Shown one piece after another: positions 1 to 7,903 of a stretch of DNA of 7,903 nucleotides (its first letter is position 1; each line of letters opens with the position of its first letter). Where the stretch lies: the IMG/VR virus record IMGVR_UViG_2703718674_000012, one strand, 5' to 3'. The notes beneath the pieces were generated by a model, which worked only from the letters and a program-made list of their open reading frames with translations, was not told where the DNA came from and ran no database searches. Source of the DNA: a virus (Duplodnaviria > Heunggongvirae > Uroviricota > Caudoviricetes). A program made the translations under genes and the position numbers.

Positions 1-201
1 CTGCTTCATAGCCTGCTTCTCCTTGACCTTTCGGTCCGTAAGAGGCAATCTATATGTGACGAGCATATAGGGGCCTCACTTCGATTTATAGTCGGGTGGG
101 GCTTTTATCTATCTGCCGTTGGTGTTCATGCCCGAGGCAGATAGCCTCAAGCACCCGCAGCAATCCTACTTAACTCTGCCGTTACAGCAAACCGTTTTCG
201 C

Positions 202-3397: not shown

Positions 3398-4225
3398 GGT
3401 TTACCCCTTTGCTGACTGGTTTAACCTGCGCCCTGACGTGATTTACGTGACGGGCGAATTTCTGCTCCCACTGAATCTGCGTAAACACTTTCCCCTCCGC
3501 TGCCCAGTAGTCCCGGAAGGCGGCAAGTTCAGCAGGTGTAAATTCTGTCTCCGGCAAAGCCATCCCCCACAACGCAGCCCGTCGTCGAAAATCCCGTGAC
3601 GGATACCAGCTATCGCTCATCGGGAATTTTCCGATGGGTTCGCTCAGGCCATACAGGAATACAGGGGGGCTGCCTGTAACGACAAAACTTCCTGCTCACT
3701 GGTCGGAGCACTCTCGCGTGCGTTATGTGTGGGGTTTAGATCTTTGGGTTCCTTTGGGTTCCGTGATCCGTTTTTGGGTGTCTTTGATGGAAAATTTGGG
3801 TGTCTTTGGTTATTTTCCATGCAGCTAAGAGTTCTGTTTTTGGGTCTGTTTTGTGCTGAAACATAACCATTTTCGGTACTGTTTTTATTAACAGCACCAA
3901 TTGTACCCACCTTTAAAGACTCCCGTTTTTGGGTGTATTCAGGCTCGGCAACACTTTCTTCTACACCGATAAGTCGGTACACCACAATTTGCTTTGTTCT
4001 GCCTTTTCTCTCACCGGTATCAACAATTAACCCAATCTCCATCAGGTGTCGTAAGCTGTCCTGCACAGTCTTTTTGTTCAGTTCCGTTACTTCTGCCAGT
4101 GCAGATACAGACGGGTATGCACACAAATCGGCACCGCACATATCAGCAAGCCAGGTCAATACTGACTTACTGGATGAACTGCCGGTTTTCACCTTTTTAG
4201 CCCATCGTAGTGCATCGATACTCAT
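3186..4225 (-). pseudogene. Replication initiator O-like (N-terminal HTH, iteron-encoded linker, C-terminal DnaT-like domain), split by a frameshift at a C6 tract (plus-strand G6 at 3664-3669)
   Basis: N-terminal part: ATG 4225 with RBS AGGGGG, HTH-like MSIDALRWAKKV...LTWLADMCG...LIGV, frame ends at stop 3644-3646. C-terminal part: a different frame is open from 3695 to 3186 and encodes PIGKFPMSDSWYPSRDFRRRAALWGMAL...AEGKVFTQIQWEQKFAR, which resembles the C-terminal domain of E. coli DnaT as I recall it. Adding one C to the C6 tract joins the two frames as ...SLQAAPPVFLYGLSEPIGKFPMSDSW... Confidence 0.6.
3743..3936. repeat. Iteron cluster plus AT-rich tract; candidate origin of replication inside the O-like gene
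   Basis: TTTGGGT core at 3743, 3753, 3773, 3795, 3839 and 3928. Two perfect 14-mers TTTGGGTGTCTTTG at 3773-3786 and 3795-3808. Tandem TTTGGGTTCC at 3743-3762. AT-rich segment about 3810-3900. This layout matches lambda ori lying within O (established knowledge). Confidence 0.6.
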
Positions 4226-4748
4226 ACGACCCCCTGGCAGACATTTGTTTATCTGCAAAGTAATATTGGTATTGCTGACGATACGCGTGCTTGAAAGCAA
4301 TAGCTTTTTCTATAAGCTCGTCAGTCTCACGTTCCACAACAACTGGATCCGCAAAAAGCAGCCCGGACTCCACCACATCGCCATATTCTTTGTTTAACCC
4401 GGCGATCATGTACGTAATGCTTTTTCCGTCAGTAATTTCACAATACAATCTGAAATCGCTGATCCGGATAGCCTCCATAATTGCCGGAATCAGCGCCGTG
4501 AATTTGTCACGCTTATCTCTGGTGTCGATAGCTTTCCAGCGTTCGAATATCTTCACCCGGTTAACGCCCAGCGCCCGTTGATCAACCTCGCCATCATTAA
4601 ACGTGACGCGTTGAACATCGATGTTCGGGCGTTCTTTCAGAGCCCAGAATGCTTCCGTGATTAATATCGTCGCCTGCTCCTGTGTCATTCCTGGTCGGCA
4701 TACCCAGGTATCCAGAGCCTCACAAACCTGTTCAGTGGTGATTTTCAT
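4197..4748 (-). CDS. YdaT-like protein in the CII position (between the cro-like gene and O); candidate CII functional analogue
   Basis: 183-aa ORF. Its start overlaps the dicC stop by 17 nt and its end overlaps the O-like start by 29 nt. N-terminus MKI... and the motif ERWKAIDTRDKRDKFTALIPAIMEAI resemble Rac YdaT (HRWLKGETKTQREKIQKLIPAILAIL) as I recall it; not searched. Confidence 0.5.
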   Translation of the reverse strand: MKITTEQVCEALDTWVCRPGMTQEQATILITEAFWALKERPNIDVQRVTFNDGEVDQRALGVNRVKIFERWKAIDTRDKRDKFTALIPAIMEAIRISDFRLYCEITDGKSITYMIAGLNKEYGDVVESGLLFADPVVVERETDELIEKAIAFKHAYRQQYQYYFADKQMSARGSYEYRCTTMG

Positions 4749-4959
4749 TGTTCAACCGCCCCGCCCGCTTTGCCTTACGATATTCGTCATAAACTTTGGG
4801 GTCGTACTGAAGTTCCCCGCCGGATGCCTCTTGCAGGCGCATCGCGCGACCTTCAGGAACCAGTTCCCCCCATGCAGCAACGCTTGCCAGCCTAACTCCT
4901 GCGACATTGGCAAGCTTTGTTTTGCTGCCAAAAAACGCTATAGCATCAATTTTCAACAT
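4732..4959 (-). CDS. dicC: DicC, Cro-like repressor of the Qin-type immunity region
   Basis: 75-aa ORF divergent from dicA. RBS AAGGGG upstream of ATG at 4959. Protein MLKIDAIAFFGSKTKLANVAGVRLAS...GRAMRLQEASGGELQYDPKVYDEYRKAKRAGRL closely matches K-12 DicC as I recall it. Confidence 0.85.
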   Translation of the reverse strand: MLKIDAIAFFGSKTKLANVAGVRLASVAAWGELVPEGRAMRLQEASGGELQYDPKVYDEYRKAKRAGRLNNENHH

Positions 4960-5035
4960 ATCGAACCCCTTAGATTTTCCTAAGGAAACTAGATCGTAGA
5001 GAAACCTAAGTCAAGAAAAATTAGAATTACCTAAT
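4960..5035. promoter_or_regulatory. dicA-dicC divergent control region: candidate dicC promoter, candidate operators, and a -10-like element for an apparently leaderless dicA
   Basis: Minus strand: -35 TTGACT (plus 5009-5014), 17-nt spacer, -10 TAGTTT (plus 4986-4991). Palindrome CTTAGATTTTCCTAAG at 4969-4984. 15-mer GTAGAGAAACCTAAG at 4996-5010 is the reverse complement of CTTAGGTTTCTCTAC and is repeated with one mismatch at 5518-5532. Plus strand: TAGAAT at 5022-5027, 8 nt before the dicA ATG, which has no SD. Confidence 0.45.
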
Positions 5036-5443
5036 ATGAAAAACGAAACCTTCGGTGCTCGCCTCTTATACAGGCGAAAAAAATTAAAACTGTCTCAGGC
5101 CGCATTAGGTAAGCTGGTCAAAGTGGCTCACGTAACAATTTCTCAATGGGAAAGAGATGAAACACAGCCAGCGGGGAAGAGATTATTCGCACTGAGCCAG
5201 GCGCTTCAGTGCTCGCCGACTTGGCTTCTTTTTGGAGATGAAGATAAGCAACCAGGCGAACCGATCCCAGATAATCAGCCAGTCAATCTGACAGAAGATC
5301 AAAAAGAGTTGCTTCAACTGTTCGACGCACTGCCTGAGTCAGAGCAAAAGGCTCTGTTGTCAGAGATGCGTGCTCGAGTTGAGAATTTCAACAAACTTTT
5401 TGAAGAACTACTCAAAGCTCGCAAAAGAAGCGCAAATAAATAA
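5036..5443 (+). CDS. dicA: DicA, cI-like HTH repressor of the dicB operon
   Basis: 135-aa ORF. HTH region LKLSQAALGKLVKVAHVTISQWER and C-terminus ...FALSQALQCSPTWLLFGDEDKQP...LPESEQ...EMRARVENFNKLFEELLKAR match K-12 DicA as I recall it, including identical length. No SD; see leaderless hypothesis. Confidence 0.9.
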   Translation: MKNETFGARLLYRRKKLKLSQAALGKLVKVAHVTISQWERDETQPAGKRLFALSQALQCSPTWLLFGDEDKQPGEPIPDNQPVNLTEDQKELLQLFDALPESEQKALLSEMRARVENFNKLFEELLKARKRSANK

Positions 5444-5649: not shown

Positions 5650-6006
5650 GTGGGCGAAGTCAAACATCAGAATGGAAGGCGTCCAGGGATCAGCAAAGAA
5701 ACAGCGATGGCGCTTTATATTGATATCAGCGCCATTGCCGGACAGGTAAGAGTTATCAGAGCGGTAACTAAGCGGTATGCGCCTTTACTTCAGAAAGTCT
5801 CTGGTGAGTGCACCGAAGATATTGTCAACGATTTCGTCATCGAACTGCGAGGACTCATCTTCAGTTACAAGGTGACCACAATTTTTGCAGATGGCTCCCG
5901 CGAAACTGTCAGAGCCCTGCGGCTTAAAGGATGTGTCAAAGACTTAGCCACCACATTCTGGGCAAGAAAACTTGATTGTATTCATAACCAATTTCCTCTC
6001 GAGTAA
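5650..6006 (+). CDS. Hypothetical protein at the ydfA/ydfB position of the dicB operon (start GTG 5650, or ATG 5707)
   Basis: 118-aa ORF with SD-like AGAGGA 7 nt upstream of GTG 5650. First gene downstream of the candidate operon promoter. The internal ATG at 5707 would give 99 aa. No family recognised with confidence. Confidence 0.5.
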   Translation: MGEVKHQNGRRPGISKETAMALYIDISAIAGQVRVIRAVTKRYAPLLQKVSGECTEDIVNDFVIELRGLIFSYKVTTIFADGSRETVRALRLKGCVKDLATTFWARKLDCIHNQFPLE

Positions 6007-6078
6007 CAGACCCCTCAGAGGATACCACCTCGCCTGACGTGGTTAAAAAGCAGGCAACGCTAACCACAAGGAGCCGAC

Positions 6079-6297
6079 ATGCAGAAACGAGACCCCGTCA
6101 TCATCGCGCCAGACTATACCGATGATGAACTTTATGAGTGGATGCACCAGAAAATTAAGGCGGTGCAGGACCTGAAATGGGCCAATGAAGCCAGGGCTAA
6201 GCAGGCTGAAAATCTGTCCGCTCTGGAGCAGGATATCACCAATCTGGAAAAAGCAGCGGCATTAAGCATTGCCAGAATGATTACATACCCACGTTAA
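6079..6297 (+). CDS. ydfC: YdfC-like small protein of the dicB operon
   Basis: 72-aa ORF with strong RBS AAGGAG 6 nt upstream of the ATG. Size and operon position match K-12 ydfC. Sequence identity to YdfC is recalled only loosely. Confidence 0.6.
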   Translation: MQKRDPVIIAPDYTDDELYEWMHQKIKAVQDLKWANEARAKQAENLSALEQDITNLEKAAALSIARMITYPR

Positions 6298-6319
6298 TAG
6301 CTAACCAACGAGGCTAATA

Positions 6320-6727
6320 ATGGAATTTAAAGATTTACCAACGCCATTACAGGAAATGGCATCGAATATAGTTCGTTCACAACTGGCTACTCTTGACCTT
6401 AGTACCGCAGAAAAAGAAACCATCGATAATATGGTTCGTAATGTGCGCAATGCTTTTTCTGGGCTATATGGTTCTGATAATCAAAAGCAGGAAAGCGATG
6501 TTAATAAACGGGTAATTTCTGTTTGCGTGAATGGCCATGTTCTTTCATCAATCAAAACAGAAACGGCGACAGTCTTCGATTGCCTTTGCATTGTACAGAG
6601 CCTTGTTGATGCCCTGTTTCGTTCAGTGAATTTAGAAAATGATGCAAATCTGCGAGGGCGCATAATAGCACATCCATATGCACATACTTTAGGCTCTGTG
6701 GATATCAAAGATCCCACAAATCTTTAA
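6320..6727 (+). CDS. Hypothetical protein, no recognisable family; AT-rich gene following ydfC by 22 nt
   Basis: 135-aa ORF (MEFKDLPTPLQEMASNIVRSQLATLDLSTAEKETIDNMVRNV...). GAGG-type RBS about 8 nt upstream. Visibly AT-richer than neighbouring phage genes. Its 3' end overlaps the convergent ORF 6705-6938 by 23 nt. Confidence 0.55.
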   Translation: MEFKDLPTPLQEMASNIVRSQLATLDLSTAEKETIDNMVRNVRNAFSGLYGSDNQKQESDVNKRVISVCVNGHVLSSIKTETATVFDCLCIVQSLVDALFRSVNLENDANLRGRIIAHPYAHTLGSVDIKDPTNL

Positions 6728-6938
6728 TGAAATAGTTAACGCGAATTGTACTTGCTCTTTCGGTTGCTTTCAGAATACGCGTTGAAACTGCTGGCGGTAA
6801 TTTGGTATTCCATTTATTAAAATCATGCCCGGGAAAGTACTCTTCGAAAATACTTTTAACTGCAGACTCGCCTATTGAAATGCTGCTTACCATGCGATTT
6901 TGATAAAGGCATTTAGCAATAAGAGTTGATTTTAACAT
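6705..6938 (-). CDS. Hypothetical small protein encoded antisense to the dicB-operon transcript, convergent with the 6320-6727 gene
   Basis: 77-aa ORF with strong RBS AGGAGG 4-5 nt upstream of ATG at 6938. It occupies a stretch (6728-6938) that has no plus-strand ORF. Hydrophilic and lysine-rich, with no signal peptide or TM segment evident. No family recognised. Confidence 0.5.
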   Translation of the reverse strand: MLKSTLIAKCLYQNRMVSSISIGESAVKSIFEEYFPGHDFNKWNTKLPPAVSTRILKATERASTIRVNYFIKDLWDL

Positions 6939-7271
6939 TCACCCTCCTGAGGGTTGGTAATTAAGGAGTTCTCCACGGGTGAAGTGGAGTGCGTGCGCCG
7001 GACACGGGTGAACATCCGGCACTGACAGTTTACTGAAAGGATATTTCTCTGAAAAGTCAGAGCATAACGCGAAAGCGCACGGCGAGGTTGCTGGTTCATA
7101 GATAGCCTGTCGTTAAATTTTCGTCGACCGTGCGCTTCCGGTTGTGGCACTCCGCGAAATGGCGCAGCGGTAAGTATGGCGGGGTTATTCCTTCCCCGTT
7201 GAGGACACCGGGTTGTCAGGTTGACCATACGCTTAAGTGACAACCCCGCTGCAACGCCCTCTGTTATCAAT

Positions 7272-7327
7272 TTTCTGGTGACGTTTGGCGGCATCTGTTT
7301 GCCCATGAACTGATGTCCGCCCTTTTT
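7272..7327 (+). ncRNA. dicF: DicF small RNA (Hfq-dependent cell-division inhibitor sRNA) with its intrinsic terminator
   Basis: 5' TTTCTGGTGACGTTTGGCGG matches the K-12 DicF 5' region as I recall it. Terminator stem GGCGGCAT / ATGTCCGCC (about 7287-7321) followed by TTTTT at 7323-7327. Located about 145 nt upstream of the dicB core, as in Qin. Confidence 0.75.
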
Positions 7328-7391
7328 AAAGTGAATTTTGTGATGCAGTGAATGCGGCTAAGCGCACGCGGAACAGTTAAAGCTAAAAACA

Positions 7392-7658
7392 GTGTTATGG
7401 GTGGATTCTCTGTATCCGGCGTTAATTGTTAACTGGTTAACGTCACCTGGAGGCACCAGGCACCGCATCACAAAATTCATTGTTGAGGAAATTAATACGT
7501 CTGAAGGTTGTTTTGAAATTGGTGTCACTATCAGTAACCCTGTATTTACTGAAGATGCCATTAACAAGAGAAAACACGAACGGGAGTTATTAAATAAAAT
7601 ATGCATTCTTTCAATGCTGGCCCGTTTACGTCCGATACAAAAAGGATGCTGGCAATGA
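7392..7658 (+). CDS. dicB: DicB cell-division inhibitor; start codon uncertain (conserved core from about 7491, only GTG 7392 or 7401 in frame)
   Basis: Core NTSEGCFEIGVTISNPVFTEDAINKRKHERELLNKICILSMLARLRPIQKGC matches K-12 DicB as I recall it. No in-frame ATG between the upstream stop (7359-7361) and the core. Stop TGA 7656-7658 overlaps the ydfD ATG (ATGA). Confidence 0.75.
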   Translation: MLWVDSLYPALIVNWLTSPGGTRHRITKFIVEEINTSEGCFEIGVTISNPVFTEDAINKRKHERELLNKICILSMLARLRPIQKGCWQ

Positions 7659-7846
7659 ATACAGCATTTGCACTTGTTCTGACAGTTTTTCTTGTTTCCG
7701 GAGAGCCAGTTGATATTGCAGTCAGTGTTCACAGGACAATGCAGGAGTGTGTGACTGCAGCAACCGAACAGAAAATTCCCGGTAACTGTTACCCTGTCGA
7801 TAAAGTTATTCACCAGGATAATAACGAAATCCCGGCAGGTCTTTAA
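7655..7846 (+). CDS. ydfD: YdfD-like small protein (described in the literature as a lysis protein in K-12 Qin)
   Basis: 63-aa ORF starting at the ATG within ATGA, overlapping the dicB stop. MNTAFALVLTVFLVSGEPVDIAVSVHRTMQEC...PGNCYPVDKVIHQDNNEIPAGL matches K-12 YdfD as I recall it, with identical length. Confidence 0.8.
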   Translation: MNTAFALVLTVFLVSGEPVDIAVSVHRTMQECVTAATEQKIPGNCYPVDKVIHQDNNEIPAGL

Positions 7847-7903
7847 AACAGTTCCGTAATAAACATCCGATTTCATTCTTATATGCCAGCAATGGCAGGG
7901 ATT

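What the first reader, a model, noticed from the sequence alone, without database searches (positions are those of the whole stretch)
6300..6960. Unrecognisable convergent gene pair inserted in the dicB operon between ydfC and DicF
Two ORFs with good ribosome-binding sites (135 aa on plus at 6320-6727; 77 aa on minus at 6705-6938) converge and overlap by 23 bp at their 3' ends. The segment is visibly AT-richer than the flanking phage genes, which suggests acquired cargo. From memory, the ydfC-to-dicF gap in K-12 Qin is only a few hundred bp, while here it is about 975 bp. The minus-strand gene must have its own promoter inside the DicF leader and is transcribed against the operon, a layout seen in toxin-antitoxin, exclusion and anti-defence modules. 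Neither protein resembles anything I can name, so this is the best candidate for an undescribed module.
Basis: partly seen in the sequence, partly recalled or inferred. Interest (0 to 1): 0.7.

Follow-up and report, generated by a model that had tools for sequence, protein, structure and literature searches.

The report
Conserved convergent phage gene pair
The two overlapping, oppositely oriented small genes are real and form a widespread but completely uncharacterised two-gene module of temperate phages, here dropped into the dicB operon of an E. coli O157 prophage; what it does is still unknown.

Summary
ORF135 (6320-6727, +) and ORF77 (6705-6938, -) converge with a 23-bp overlap. They fill an exact 634-bp segment (6318-6951) that K-12 Qin lacks. 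The segment is in 659 of 5,426 complete E. coli genomes; the empty junction is in 2,697.

In Serratia, Klebsiella, Dickeya, Proteus, Photorhabdus and IMG/VR phage contigs, A and B almost always sit convergent and 3'-overlapping (65 of 69 A-anchored loci). They usually lie just downstream of the CI-type repressor, in the early-left operon.

The A domain carries varying N-terminal fusions: a ClpX zinc finger, a YdfC-like domain, and here an E. coli-specific "MEFKDLP" domain.

In other genera B follows a highly conserved extended -10 promoter-like element. In this window that element is elsewhere (6013-6064), and B has no convincing promoter.

Function is unproven. My best guess is a lysogeny-coupled B effector, switched off by early-operon transcription and by A.

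The parts
6318..6951 (.). 634-bp segment absent from K-12 Qin (accessory cassette in the ydfC-DicF slot)
   Evidence: blastn breakpoints against K-12; junction alignment, no target-site duplication; present in 659 of 5,426 genomes; the empty junction is in 2,697 of 5,426
6320..6727 (+). ORF135 (phrog_1363), co-directional with the dicB operon: N-terminal 'MEFKDLP' domain fused to the conserved A domain
   Evidence: the AF2 model has low confidence (pLDDT 44)
6320..6484 (+). N-terminal ~55-aa 'MEFKDLP' domain, two predicted helices. Alternative E. coli proteins of 124, 133, 137 and 208-212 aa share it; the one locus examined (the 124-aa variant, L004) sits upstream of the DicF leader and dicB but lacks ydfC
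   Evidence: PHROG partial hits phrog_6937/2151/9419; sequences; L004; this DNA is in 1,518 of 5,426 genomes
6485..6727 (+). A domain: predicted beta-hairpin plus long helix, then a low-confidence (pLDDT < 50) tail carrying the conserved motif LE.EAN..G+T..H
   Evidence: blastp to the partners of B in other genera, E 1e-14 to 1e-18; alignment A6; phrog_23433
6705..6938 (-). B: 77-aa stand-alone protein (phrog_10348), a compact five-helix fold with no known relative
6705..6727 (.). 23-bp 3' overlap of the two coding regions. It holds an AAAGAT...ATCTTT inverted repeat, and the stop codon of A lies inside the conserved Ile-Lys codons of B
   Evidence: read from the sequence; the same 23-bp overlap in other genera; overlap classes of 23, 26, 33 and 51 bp
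6944..6949 (-). Shine-Dalgarno AGGAGG of B. The cassette boundary lies only 13 nt upstream of the B ATG
   Evidence: The same SD precedes a different 63-aa antisense gene in L014
6079..6297 (+). ydfC, the upstream neighbour. A YdfC-like domain is fused to, or adjacent to, the A domain in other phages
   Evidence: annotation; blastp 35% identity, E 2e-9, to the N-terminal part of the L099 partner, and a YdfC-like gene next to A in Proteus L017; L132 and L137
6013..6064 (-). Copy of the conserved promoter-like or boundary element that precedes B in other genera (-35 TTAACC at 6041-6046, extended -10 TGGTATCCT with the -10 hexamer at 6019-6024). Here it points into the 99-aa ORF, not at B
5707..6006 (+). 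99-aa early-operon gene (phrog_21318). Its homologue is fused C-terminally to an A domain in L114
7273..7322 (+). DicF variant, the downstream landmark of the slot
   Evidence: Rfam RF00039, 43.5 bits, below the gathering score of 48, E 6.9e-8

Best explanation
Window 6318-6951 is a mobile two-gene module of temperate phages.

Gene A runs with the early-left (pL / dicB) operon. It encodes a ~75-aa conserved domain that is here fused to an E. coli-specific N-terminal domain. Gene B is encoded antisense, overlaps the 3' end of A, and encodes a compact five-helix protein.

Proposed mechanism, largely inferred:
1. B is made from its own sigma-70 promoter, which fires against the early operon while that operon is repressed, that is, in the prophage state.
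2. B acts on a conserved host or phage target, in an exclusion or host-modulation role.
3. When the operon is derepressed, transcription through A runs head-on into and across B. This gives transcriptional interference and antisense pairing, since no terminator can fit between the genes.
4. The A protein then binds, regulates or redirects B.

Shown: the genes are real, selected and co-inherited; the convergent overlapping layout and the position next to the immunity region are conserved; a conserved promoter-like element precedes B in other genera.

Inferred: the timing of expression, the A-B interaction, and the target of B.
For: Co-occurrence and layout:
- Every intact B-anchored locus in Serratia, Dickeya, Klebsiella and Proteus, and in the IMG/VR contigs that encode B, has an A homologue convergent with a 23- or 26-bp overlap; in Photorhabdus L019 A is present but B is frameshifted.
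- 65 of 69 A-anchored IMG/VR loci have B convergent and overlapping. This includes a high-GC phage with a 38-bp overlap.

Position:
- A CI-type repressor gene lies on the same strand 0.1-2 kb upstream of A in most loci. In this window the pair lies downstream of dicA.

Selection and fold:
- dN/dS for B is 0.10-0.38.
- The B model has pLDDT 96.8.

Promoter-like element upstream of B:
- A 33-column core upstream of B is 76% identical across loci in which the B coding sequence is only 56% identical.
- It reads as -35 TTCACC, a 16-nt spacer and an extended -10 TGGTATCYT, at a fixed ~31 nt from the ATG.
- It has no RNA consensus structure.

Features of A:
- A has a conserved C-terminal tail that the model leaves at low confidence (pLDDT < 50).
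- A acquires N-terminal modules in different lineages: a ClpX C4 zinc finger twice (34 and 36 bits against a cut-off of 27) and a YdfC-like domain. I read these, from general knowledge, as dimerising or adaptor-type modules. That fits an adaptor or regulator role.
Against: - No expression or interaction data exist.
- In this E. coli window B lacks the conserved promoter at its usual place. Only weak sigma-70 matches lie upstream, so B may be poorly expressed here, or only by read-through.
- The conserved element also occurs without B, and twice per operon. It may therefore be a recombination 'boundary sequence' rather than B's promoter.
- The A domain occurs without B: in the 201-aa E. coli variant with a different antisense gene and in L114 and L164.
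- There are no PADLOC hits.
- The net charge of B is not conserved: pI 9.5 here, 4.9-6.4 elsewhere.
- The fixed overlap length can be explained as a frozen reading-frame accident.
Confidence: 0.3

Rival explanations
1. Two independent accessory genes. A is an ordinary early protein, and B is a separate moron that happened to land tail-to-tail with it. The overlap is a frozen accident, because the stop codon of A falls in the conserved Ile-Lys codons of B. On this reading there is no functional coupling.
For: - The last ~7 residues of A are poorly conserved and appear dictated by the C-terminus of B.
- B alone can be swapped for a different antisense gene while A stays.
- A occurs without B in a few loci.
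- A distant B homologue in Psychrosphaera has no A next to it.
Against: - Co-occurrence in 65 of 69 A-anchored loci, and in all intact B-anchored enterobacterial loci, holds across sequence divergence down to ~35-45% identity and across several overlap classes.
- That is hard to explain without selection on the pair.
- The pair also moves as a unit to different genomic contexts. In Photorhabdus it sits between the lysis and terminase genes. In phage Evi it sits next to Kil instead of DicB.
Confidence: 0.2
2. A regulatory pair acting on the early operon or on the lysis-lysogeny switch. A, or B, would be a small dimeric DNA-binding protein that recognises the conserved dyad element (CCAC-N10-GTGG / GCCTG-N14-CAGGC). 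That element overlaps antisense promoters scattered along the early-left operon. The partner protein would antagonise the binder.
For: - The conserved element is repeated within operons in a fixed orientation, and its dyads straddle the -35/-10 spacer.
- It is conserved among phages with different repressors, so its binder should be a conserved protein.
- The module always lies near the immunity region.
- A is fused to a ClpX zinc finger and to a YdfC-like domain. I take these to be dimerising modules (my reading; not tested here).
Against: - No HTH, RHH or other DNA-binding family or fold was detected for either protein.
- The A model is unreliable.
- The element also occurs where neither A nor B is adjacent.
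Confidence: 0.15
3. A toxin-antitoxin or addiction-like pair: B is a growth-inhibiting protein and A its protein antidote.
For: - Two small, tightly linked genes that are always together.
- A has a conserved tail that is not confidently modelled, reminiscent (from my general knowledge) of the flexible tails of antitoxins.
- Prophages at this operon position do carry TA pairs, for example RelBE-type pairs in L004 and L015.
Against: - The genes are convergent, not a co-directional autoregulated operon.
- A sits in an operon that is repressed in the lysogen, so it could not continuously neutralise B.
- No match to any toxin or antitoxin model in Pfam, NCBIfam or PADLOC.
- There is no consistent basic-toxin / acidic-antitoxin charge pattern.
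Confidence: 0.12
4. A host-takeover or anti-defence pair, with both proteins expressed early in lytic growth. The N-terminal adaptor domains of A, such as the ClpX-type zinc finger, would direct a host factor or B to proteolysis or sequestration.
For: - The location is among early-left accessory genes (DicB/Kil, exonuclease, and RdgC-like genes in relatives).
- ClpX zinc-finger fusions arose in two lineages.
- The slot is hypervariable, with many alternative cargo domains.
Against: - B is oriented against the early operon, so it cannot be co-expressed from pL.
- No similarity to known anti-defence proteins was found in the PHROG annotations or the BFVD structures.
Confidence: 0.1

Closest known systems
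Lambda cII / OOP RNA and P22 ant / sar (antisense transcripts convergent with a phage regulatory gene)
   Same: A transcript starts from a constitutive-looking promoter pointing against an early operon and overlaps the 3' part of an early gene. The two transcripts must therefore be complementary. The position is close to the immunity region. (The comparison rests on general knowledge of lambda and P22.)
   Different: Here the antisense transcript encodes a conserved, well-folded 77-aa protein. The overlapped gene product A is itself conserved together with it. No RNA structure or RNase III site has been shown.
Prophage-expressed exclusion systems beside the repressor (lambda RexAB, P22 SieB with its escape function Esc, Salmonella BTP1 BstA)
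   Same: Small accessory functions sit next to the immunity region. The logic is 'prophage factor plus phage-encoded self-escape'. A 307-aa gene of unknown family, the size I recall for BstA, lies between the repressor and the pair in Serratia locus L006; its identity was not tested.
   Different: There is no sequence, profile or fold similarity. The orientation is antisense to the early operon. There is no evidence yet that B is expressed in lysogens or excludes phages.
Type II toxin-antitoxin modules
   Same: Two small, tightly linked genes, one of them with a tail that is not confidently modelled.
   Different: The genes are convergent and overlapping rather than co-directional. There is no family match and no consistent charge pattern.
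Lambdoid 'morons' and conserved 'boundary sequences' at module junctions
   Same: An AT-richer insert lies between conserved operon genes. A short conserved sequence recurs at gene boundaries of the early-left operon. The boundary-sequence concept is cited in PMC3029335.
   Different: The cassette boundary lies 13 nt from the B start codon, so no promoter travels with it in E. coli. No terminator was found. The pair, rather than a single gene, is the conserved unit.
The dicBF operon of Qin (ydfABC-dicF-dicB-ydfD)
   Same: The host locus is the same, and the flanks are 92-95% identical to K-12. The operon is described in PMC5069750.
   Different: The pair is not part of the K-12 operon. In phage Evi it sits beside Kil, and in other genera in operons without dicB or dicF. 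It therefore has no specific tie to DicF or DicB.

Membership tests
Type II toxin-antitoxin system | Toxin and antitoxin genes co-directional in one autoregulated operon | tested here: not met
   The genes are convergent with a 23-bp 3' overlap in the window and in all relatives
Type II toxin-antitoxin system | Homology of either protein to a known toxin or antitoxin family | tested here: not met
   No Pfam, NCBIfam or PADLOC match, and no PDB match by sequence, profile or fold
Type II toxin-antitoxin system | The toxin arrests growth; the antitoxin neutralises it by binding | not testable with these tools
   Needs expression and interaction experiments.
Type I toxin-antitoxin (hok/sok-like) | A small hydrophobic membrane toxin controlled by a cis-antisense RNA | tested here: not met
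   B is a soluble helical protein (GRAVY -0.13, no hydrophobic span, pLDDT 96.8). No Rfam hit falls in 6300-6960 apart from a chance-level one
Prophage superinfection-exclusion or defence gene (RexAB / SieB / BstA type) | Located next to the immunity repressor | tested here: met
   A CI-type repressor lies 0.1-2 kb upstream on the A strand in most loci. In the window the pair is downstream of dicA
Prophage superinfection-exclusion or defence gene (RexAB / SieB / BstA type) | Own promoter active in the lysogen | tested here: inconclusive
   A conserved extended -10 promoter-like element precedes B in other genera. It is missing upstream of B in this window, where only weak matches exist. There are no expression data
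Prophage superinfection-exclusion or defence gene (RexAB / SieB / BstA type) | Similarity to a catalogued defence protein | tested here: not met
   PADLOC-DB: no family at E <= 1
Core dicBF operon of Qin-type prophages | Present in K-12 Qin and in most dicB loci | tested here: not met
   Absent from K-12. The insert is in 659 of 5,426 genomes, against 2,697 of 5,426 with the empty junction
PHROG families phrog_1363 (ORF135) and phrog_10348 (ORF77), both of unknown function | Full-length profile match | tested here: met
   E 4.8e-47 over residues 1-130, and E 1.1e-47 over residues 1-77
ClpX C4 zinc-finger proteins (PF06689) | Match to the zinc-finger profile above the gathering score | tested here: not met
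   Window ORF135 has no such hit. Only the A-domain proteins of L092/L138 and L154 do, at 34.1 and 36 bits against a cut-off of 27
Moron (promoter-gene-terminator insert in a phage operon) | The inserted unit carries its own promoter and terminator | tested here: inconclusive
   The insert boundary is 13 nt upstream of the B ATG, so no promoter lies inside it. One weak terminator-like site on the minus strand lies at 6274-6257 inside ydfC, which is no more than chance expectation

The most novel reading that the evidence does not exclude
A-B would be a previously unrecognised class of phage switch module. B, a protein with a new fold, would be made from a conserved antisense promoter in the prophage state. 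It would be silenced, both by head-on transcription and by its co-evolving partner A, when the early operon fires. Such a module could be a new exclusion or defence system with a built-in self-antidote. Alternatively, it could be a new layer of lysis-lysogeny control shared by many N-less lambdoid phages of Proteobacteria.
Probability: 0.25. Interest if true: 0.8.

Novelty: new variant of a known kind. Interest (0 to 1): 0.6.

Why it matters
Prophage accessory genes next to the immunity region have repeatedly turned out to be exclusion, defence or host-control functions, such as RexAB, SieB, BstA and DicB itself.

This pair stands out for three reasons. It is widespread in temperate phages of Enterobacterales and beyond. 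It is carried by the major EHEC lineages, including O157:H7, O145 and O111. And it has an unusually rigid architecture, yet no family, fold or literature record.

It gives a compact, directly testable system of two genes totalling about 630 bp. That system can be used to ask how convergent transcription and a partner protein control a prophage-encoded factor.

In O157 the module also sits in the path of the transcript that yields DicF and DicB. Both affect cell division and phage resistance, and DicF also affects EHEC virulence.

Tried and rejected
- Family searches for both proteins found nothing meaningful. Pfam, NCBIfam and PADLOC gave no real hits; PHROGs gave only unknown-function families.
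- PDB searches by sequence and by profile found nothing.
- The afdb50 library was unavailable.
- The ORF135 model was too poor (pLDDT 44) to search with.
- I tested whether the conserved element upstream of B is a structured RNA, either a 5' leader or a put-like antiterminator. RNAalifold gave no consensus structure (-0.22 kcal/mol, no compensatory pairs), so I read it as a DNA-level element.
- I looked for toxin-antitoxin-style charge asymmetry. It is not conserved.
- I considered apparent 'B without intact A' contigs (L106-L108) as evidence against an antidote role. The A lesions are single-base indels in homopolymer runs, likely sequencing errors, so I did not use them.
- Literature searches on PPompW, the WP accessions, guessed EDL933 tags, and ydfC/ydfB found no functional information on these genes.
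- I rejected a specific link to DicF or DicB, because the pair occurs in operons without them.

Full report
**Origin of the window.** The window is 100% identical to a lambdoid prophage integrated at ompW in E. coli O157:H7 and related EHEC strains. Its layout reads: paa, replication genes, a YdaT-like gene and a dicC-like cro on the minus strand. The plus strand then carries dicA, a 99-aa gene, ydfC, the two ORFs of the finding, a DicF variant, dicB and a ydfD-like gene.

**1. The observation.**
The 135-aa ORF is at 6320-6727 (+) and the 77-aa ORF at 6705-6938 (-). They overlap by 23 bp and both have good Shine-Dalgarno sequences.
- GC drops to 0.38-0.415 over 6300-6900, against 0.475-0.54 on either side.
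- The remembered K-12 comparison is right. K-12 has 340 bp between ydfC and dicF; this window has 975 bp.
- blastn places the difference exactly. Window 6079-6317 equals K-12 3824-4062, and window 6952-7903 equals K-12 4063-5043. So 6318-6951 (634 bp) is extra DNA holding just the two genes. There is no target-site duplication.
- The insert is found in 659 of 5,426 complete E. coli genomes, mainly O157:H7 with O145, O111 and scattered others. The K-12-type empty junction is in 2,697.
- The insert also occurs in phage Evi, next to a Kil gene rather than dicB.

**2. The minus-strand protein, B.**
- It has no Pfam, NCBIfam, PADLOC or PDB match. It belongs to phrog_10348, of unknown function.
- Same-length homologues at 57-72% identity occur in Klebsiella/Raoultella, Dickeya, Xenorhabdus, Salmonella, Morganella, Yersinia and Serratia.
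- A profile search of 1.84 billion representatives finds 163 clusters. Nearly all are stand-alone proteins of 74-80 aa, and none is in Pfam.
- dN/dS between genera is 0.10-0.38.
- AlphaFold gives a very confident five-helix model (pLDDT 96.8).

**3. The plus-strand protein, ORF135.**
- It is a fusion of two parts. Residues 1 to ~55 ("MEFKDLP...") are shared with many other E. coli proteins of 124, 133, 137 and 208-212 aa whose C-terminal parts are unrelated. In the one locus examined, the 124-aa variant (L004) lies upstream of the DicF leader and dicB, after a DUF1391 gene rather than ydfC.
- DNA for this N-domain is in 1,518 of 5,426 genomes. The DNA just upstream of the DicF leader therefore looks like a hypervariable cargo slot, of which the A-B cassette is one occupant.
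- Residues ~58-135 form a second conserved unit, the A domain. It matches the 77-85-aa gene that lies next to B in other genera, at 35-43% identity and E 1e-14 to 1e-18. Alignment A6 shows the conserved motif VNG...T..A..DY...LE.EAN..G+T..H.
- The AF2 model of ORF135 is unreliable (pLDDT 44). It suggests two helices, a beta-hairpin, a long helix and a low-confidence (pLDDT < 50) tail.

**4. The pair is a conserved module with a rigid layout.**
- In eight loci from Serratia, Dickeya and Klebsiella, B is convergent with A with the same 23-bp overlap. The pair sits just downstream of the CI-type repressor gene, in the early-left operon.
- Proteus shows the same layout. In Photorhabdus A is present but B is frameshifted and the two reading frames no longer overlap.
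- Across about 90 B-anchored loci, every intact one has A convergent with a 23- or 26-bp overlap.
- Anchoring instead on A, 65 of 69 IMG/VR loci have B convergent and overlapping. The overlap classes are 23, 26, 33 and 51 bp.
- A high-GC phage has the pair with a 38-bp overlap.
- A CI-like repressor lies on the A strand 0.1-2 kb upstream in most loci.
- The pair also travels as a unit. In Photorhabdus it sits between the lysis and terminase genes.
- The fixed overlap length has a simple cause. The stop codon of A lies inside the conserved Ile-Lys codons of B, and the last residues of A vary as B's strand dictates. What selection clearly keeps is the tail-to-tail juxtaposition with no room for a terminator.

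**5. Fusions on the A domain.**
- A ClpX C4 zinc finger has been added N-terminally in two different lineages (34.1 and 36 bits against a gathering score of 27).
- A YdfC-like domain is fused N-terminally in L099, L132 and L137 (35% identity to the window's YdfC, E 2e-9).
- In Proteus a YdfC-like gene lies directly upstream of A, as ydfC does here.
- In L114 the A domain is fused C-terminally to a homologue of the window's 99-aa protein (57% identity, E 7e-40), and B is absent.
- In a common E. coli variant (201 aa), the B coding region is replaced almost exactly (window 6704-6937). The replacement is 395 bp that extend A by 66 residues and carry a different 63-aa antisense gene, again overlapping by 23 bp and using the same SD.
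- A can therefore exist without B. In Enterobacterales I did not see B without A.

**6. The promoter question.**
- In non-E. coli loci, the ~45 nt just upstream of B is more conserved than the genes. The core is 76% identical, against 56% for the B coding sequence and 37% for the flank.
- It reads as a sigma-70 promoter: -35 TTCACC or TTAACC, a 16-nt spacer, and an extended -10 TGGTATCYT. The -10 ends ~31 nt before the ATG, and two dyads straddle the spacer.
- RNAalifold finds no consensus RNA structure, so I take it as a DNA-level element.
- It is not exclusive to B. It occurs twice in some operons and in loci lacking B, always pointing against the operon.
- In this window the only copy is at 6013-6064, between the 99-aa gene and ydfC. 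It points into the 99-aa gene, not at B.
- Upstream of B here, the cassette boundary is 13 nt from the ATG. The DicF leader offers only weak matches: TTTTCA-17-TAAACT with its -10 hexamer beginning 94 nt upstream, and TTAACA-16-GAGAAT 472 nt upstream.
B expression in O157 is an open question.
- The element could alternatively be one of the short conserved 'boundary sequences' proposed to mediate module exchange in lambdoid phages. That concept is cited in PMC3029335.

**7. Mechanism.** The evidence supports a co-selected module at the immunity-proximal end of the early-left operon, with one gene on each strand.
- My preferred reading (confidence about 0.3) runs as follows. B is made from the antisense promoter while the early operon is repressed, and acts on a conserved target.
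- Derepression then sends RNA polymerase through A and head-on across B, and supplies A, which binds or regulates B.
- Only the architecture, the conservation and the promoter-like element are shown. The timing, the interaction and the target are inferred.
- The rivals are independent genes with a frozen overlap (0.2), a DNA-binding regulatory pair acting on the conserved dyad element (0.15), a TA-like pair (0.12) and an early anti-defence or host-takeover pair (0.1).
- The TA reading fails the co-directional operon criterion and has no family or charge support.

**8. Comparison and novelty.**
- The nearest analogies are architectural: lambda cII/OOP and P22 ant/sar for the antisense layout, RexAB, SieB/Esc and BstA for position and logic, and morons for the insert.
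- None shares sequence or fold with this pair.
- I found no paper on these proteins. The dicBF literature treats the ydf genes as unknown (PMC5069750).
- I rate the pair a new variant of a known kind, a prophage accessory module. The chance that it is a mechanistically new class is about one in four.

Noticed in passing
window 6013-6064 (-); also L130 2905 and 3475, L145 3477 and 4401, L114 3547 and 4455, L164 3892: A ~45-nt element (TGCCTG..TTYACCAC.TCAGGC..GGTGGTATCYT) recurs at gene boundaries of early-left operons in many genera. It always points against the operon and is more conserved than the neighbouring genes. It looks like an extended -10 promoter with dyads, but it could be a lambdoid 'boundary sequence'. 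Here it would start an antisense RNA about 6 nt beyond the stop of the 99-aa gene.
   Followed up: partly
window 6320-6484 and E. coli proteins P0043, P0047, P0055, P0061, P0088, P0104: The DNA just upstream of the DicF leader looks like a hypervariable cargo slot. At least five unrelated C-terminal domains are attached to the same ~55-aa 'MEFKDLP' N-terminal domain, giving proteins of 124 to 212 aa. The N-domain DNA is in 28% of complete E. coli genomes.
   Followed up: partly
L014-L016 4001-4775 (E. coli): In a 201-aa variant, B is replaced almost exactly, coding region for coding region. The replacement is a 66-aa extension of A plus an unrelated 63-aa antisense gene. That gene again overlaps by 23 bp and uses the same Shine-Dalgarno sequence.
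   Followed up: partly
L092/L138 and L154 (IMG/VR contigs): ClpX C4-type zinc fingers (PF06689, above the gathering score) are fused to the N-terminus of the A domain in two separate lineages. This hints at a link to ClpXP or at a dimerisation role.
   Followed up: partly
window 7273-7322 (+): The DicF copy of this prophage is a variant. It scores 43.5 bits, below Rfam's gathering score of 48, and differs from the Rfam DicF consensus within the terminal hairpin.
   Followed up: partly
window 7324-7475 (+): A sub-threshold match to the sRNA family STnc100 (32.3 bits against a gathering score of 47, E 6e-5) lies between DicF and dicB.
   Followed up: no
window 7-156 (-): A full-length sok antitoxin RNA (RF01794, 103.9 bits) lies at the left end of the window, implying a hok/sok-type locus beside paa.
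   Followed up: no
window 6952-7272 (+) and K-12 L002 4063-4382: The DicF leader starts with a degenerate, oppositely oriented relative of the conserved element (TTCTCCACGGGTGAAGTGGAG). It then holds a GCCGGA..TCCGGC hairpin. That hairpin looks homologous, with compensatory changes, to the GCCTG..CAGGC dyad of the element in other genera.
   Followed up: partly
L006 5713-6636 (Serratia): A 307-aa gene with no Pfam hit lies between the CI repressor and the A-B pair. Its size matches my recollection of the BstA defence protein, which sits at the same place in Salmonella BTP1. The identity was not checked.
   Followed up: no
L011 about 4880-4925 (Klebsiella): In the early-operon direction, a GC-rich hairpin followed by a T-run lies just beyond B and the conserved element, before the RdgC-like gene. 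It looks like an intrinsic terminator. The pair would then sit between pL and the first terminator, the position of gene N in lambda.
   Followed up: no
L001 3211-4423 (strain PV15-279): In some O157 strains an IS1203 copy interrupts the replication-gene region of the same prophage. The window lacks this insertion.
   Followed up: no
L106-L108 (IMG/VR): Three related metagenomic contigs show A broken by single-base indels in homopolymer runs while B is intact. These are probably sequencing errors, but could be genuine loss of A.
   Followed up: partly
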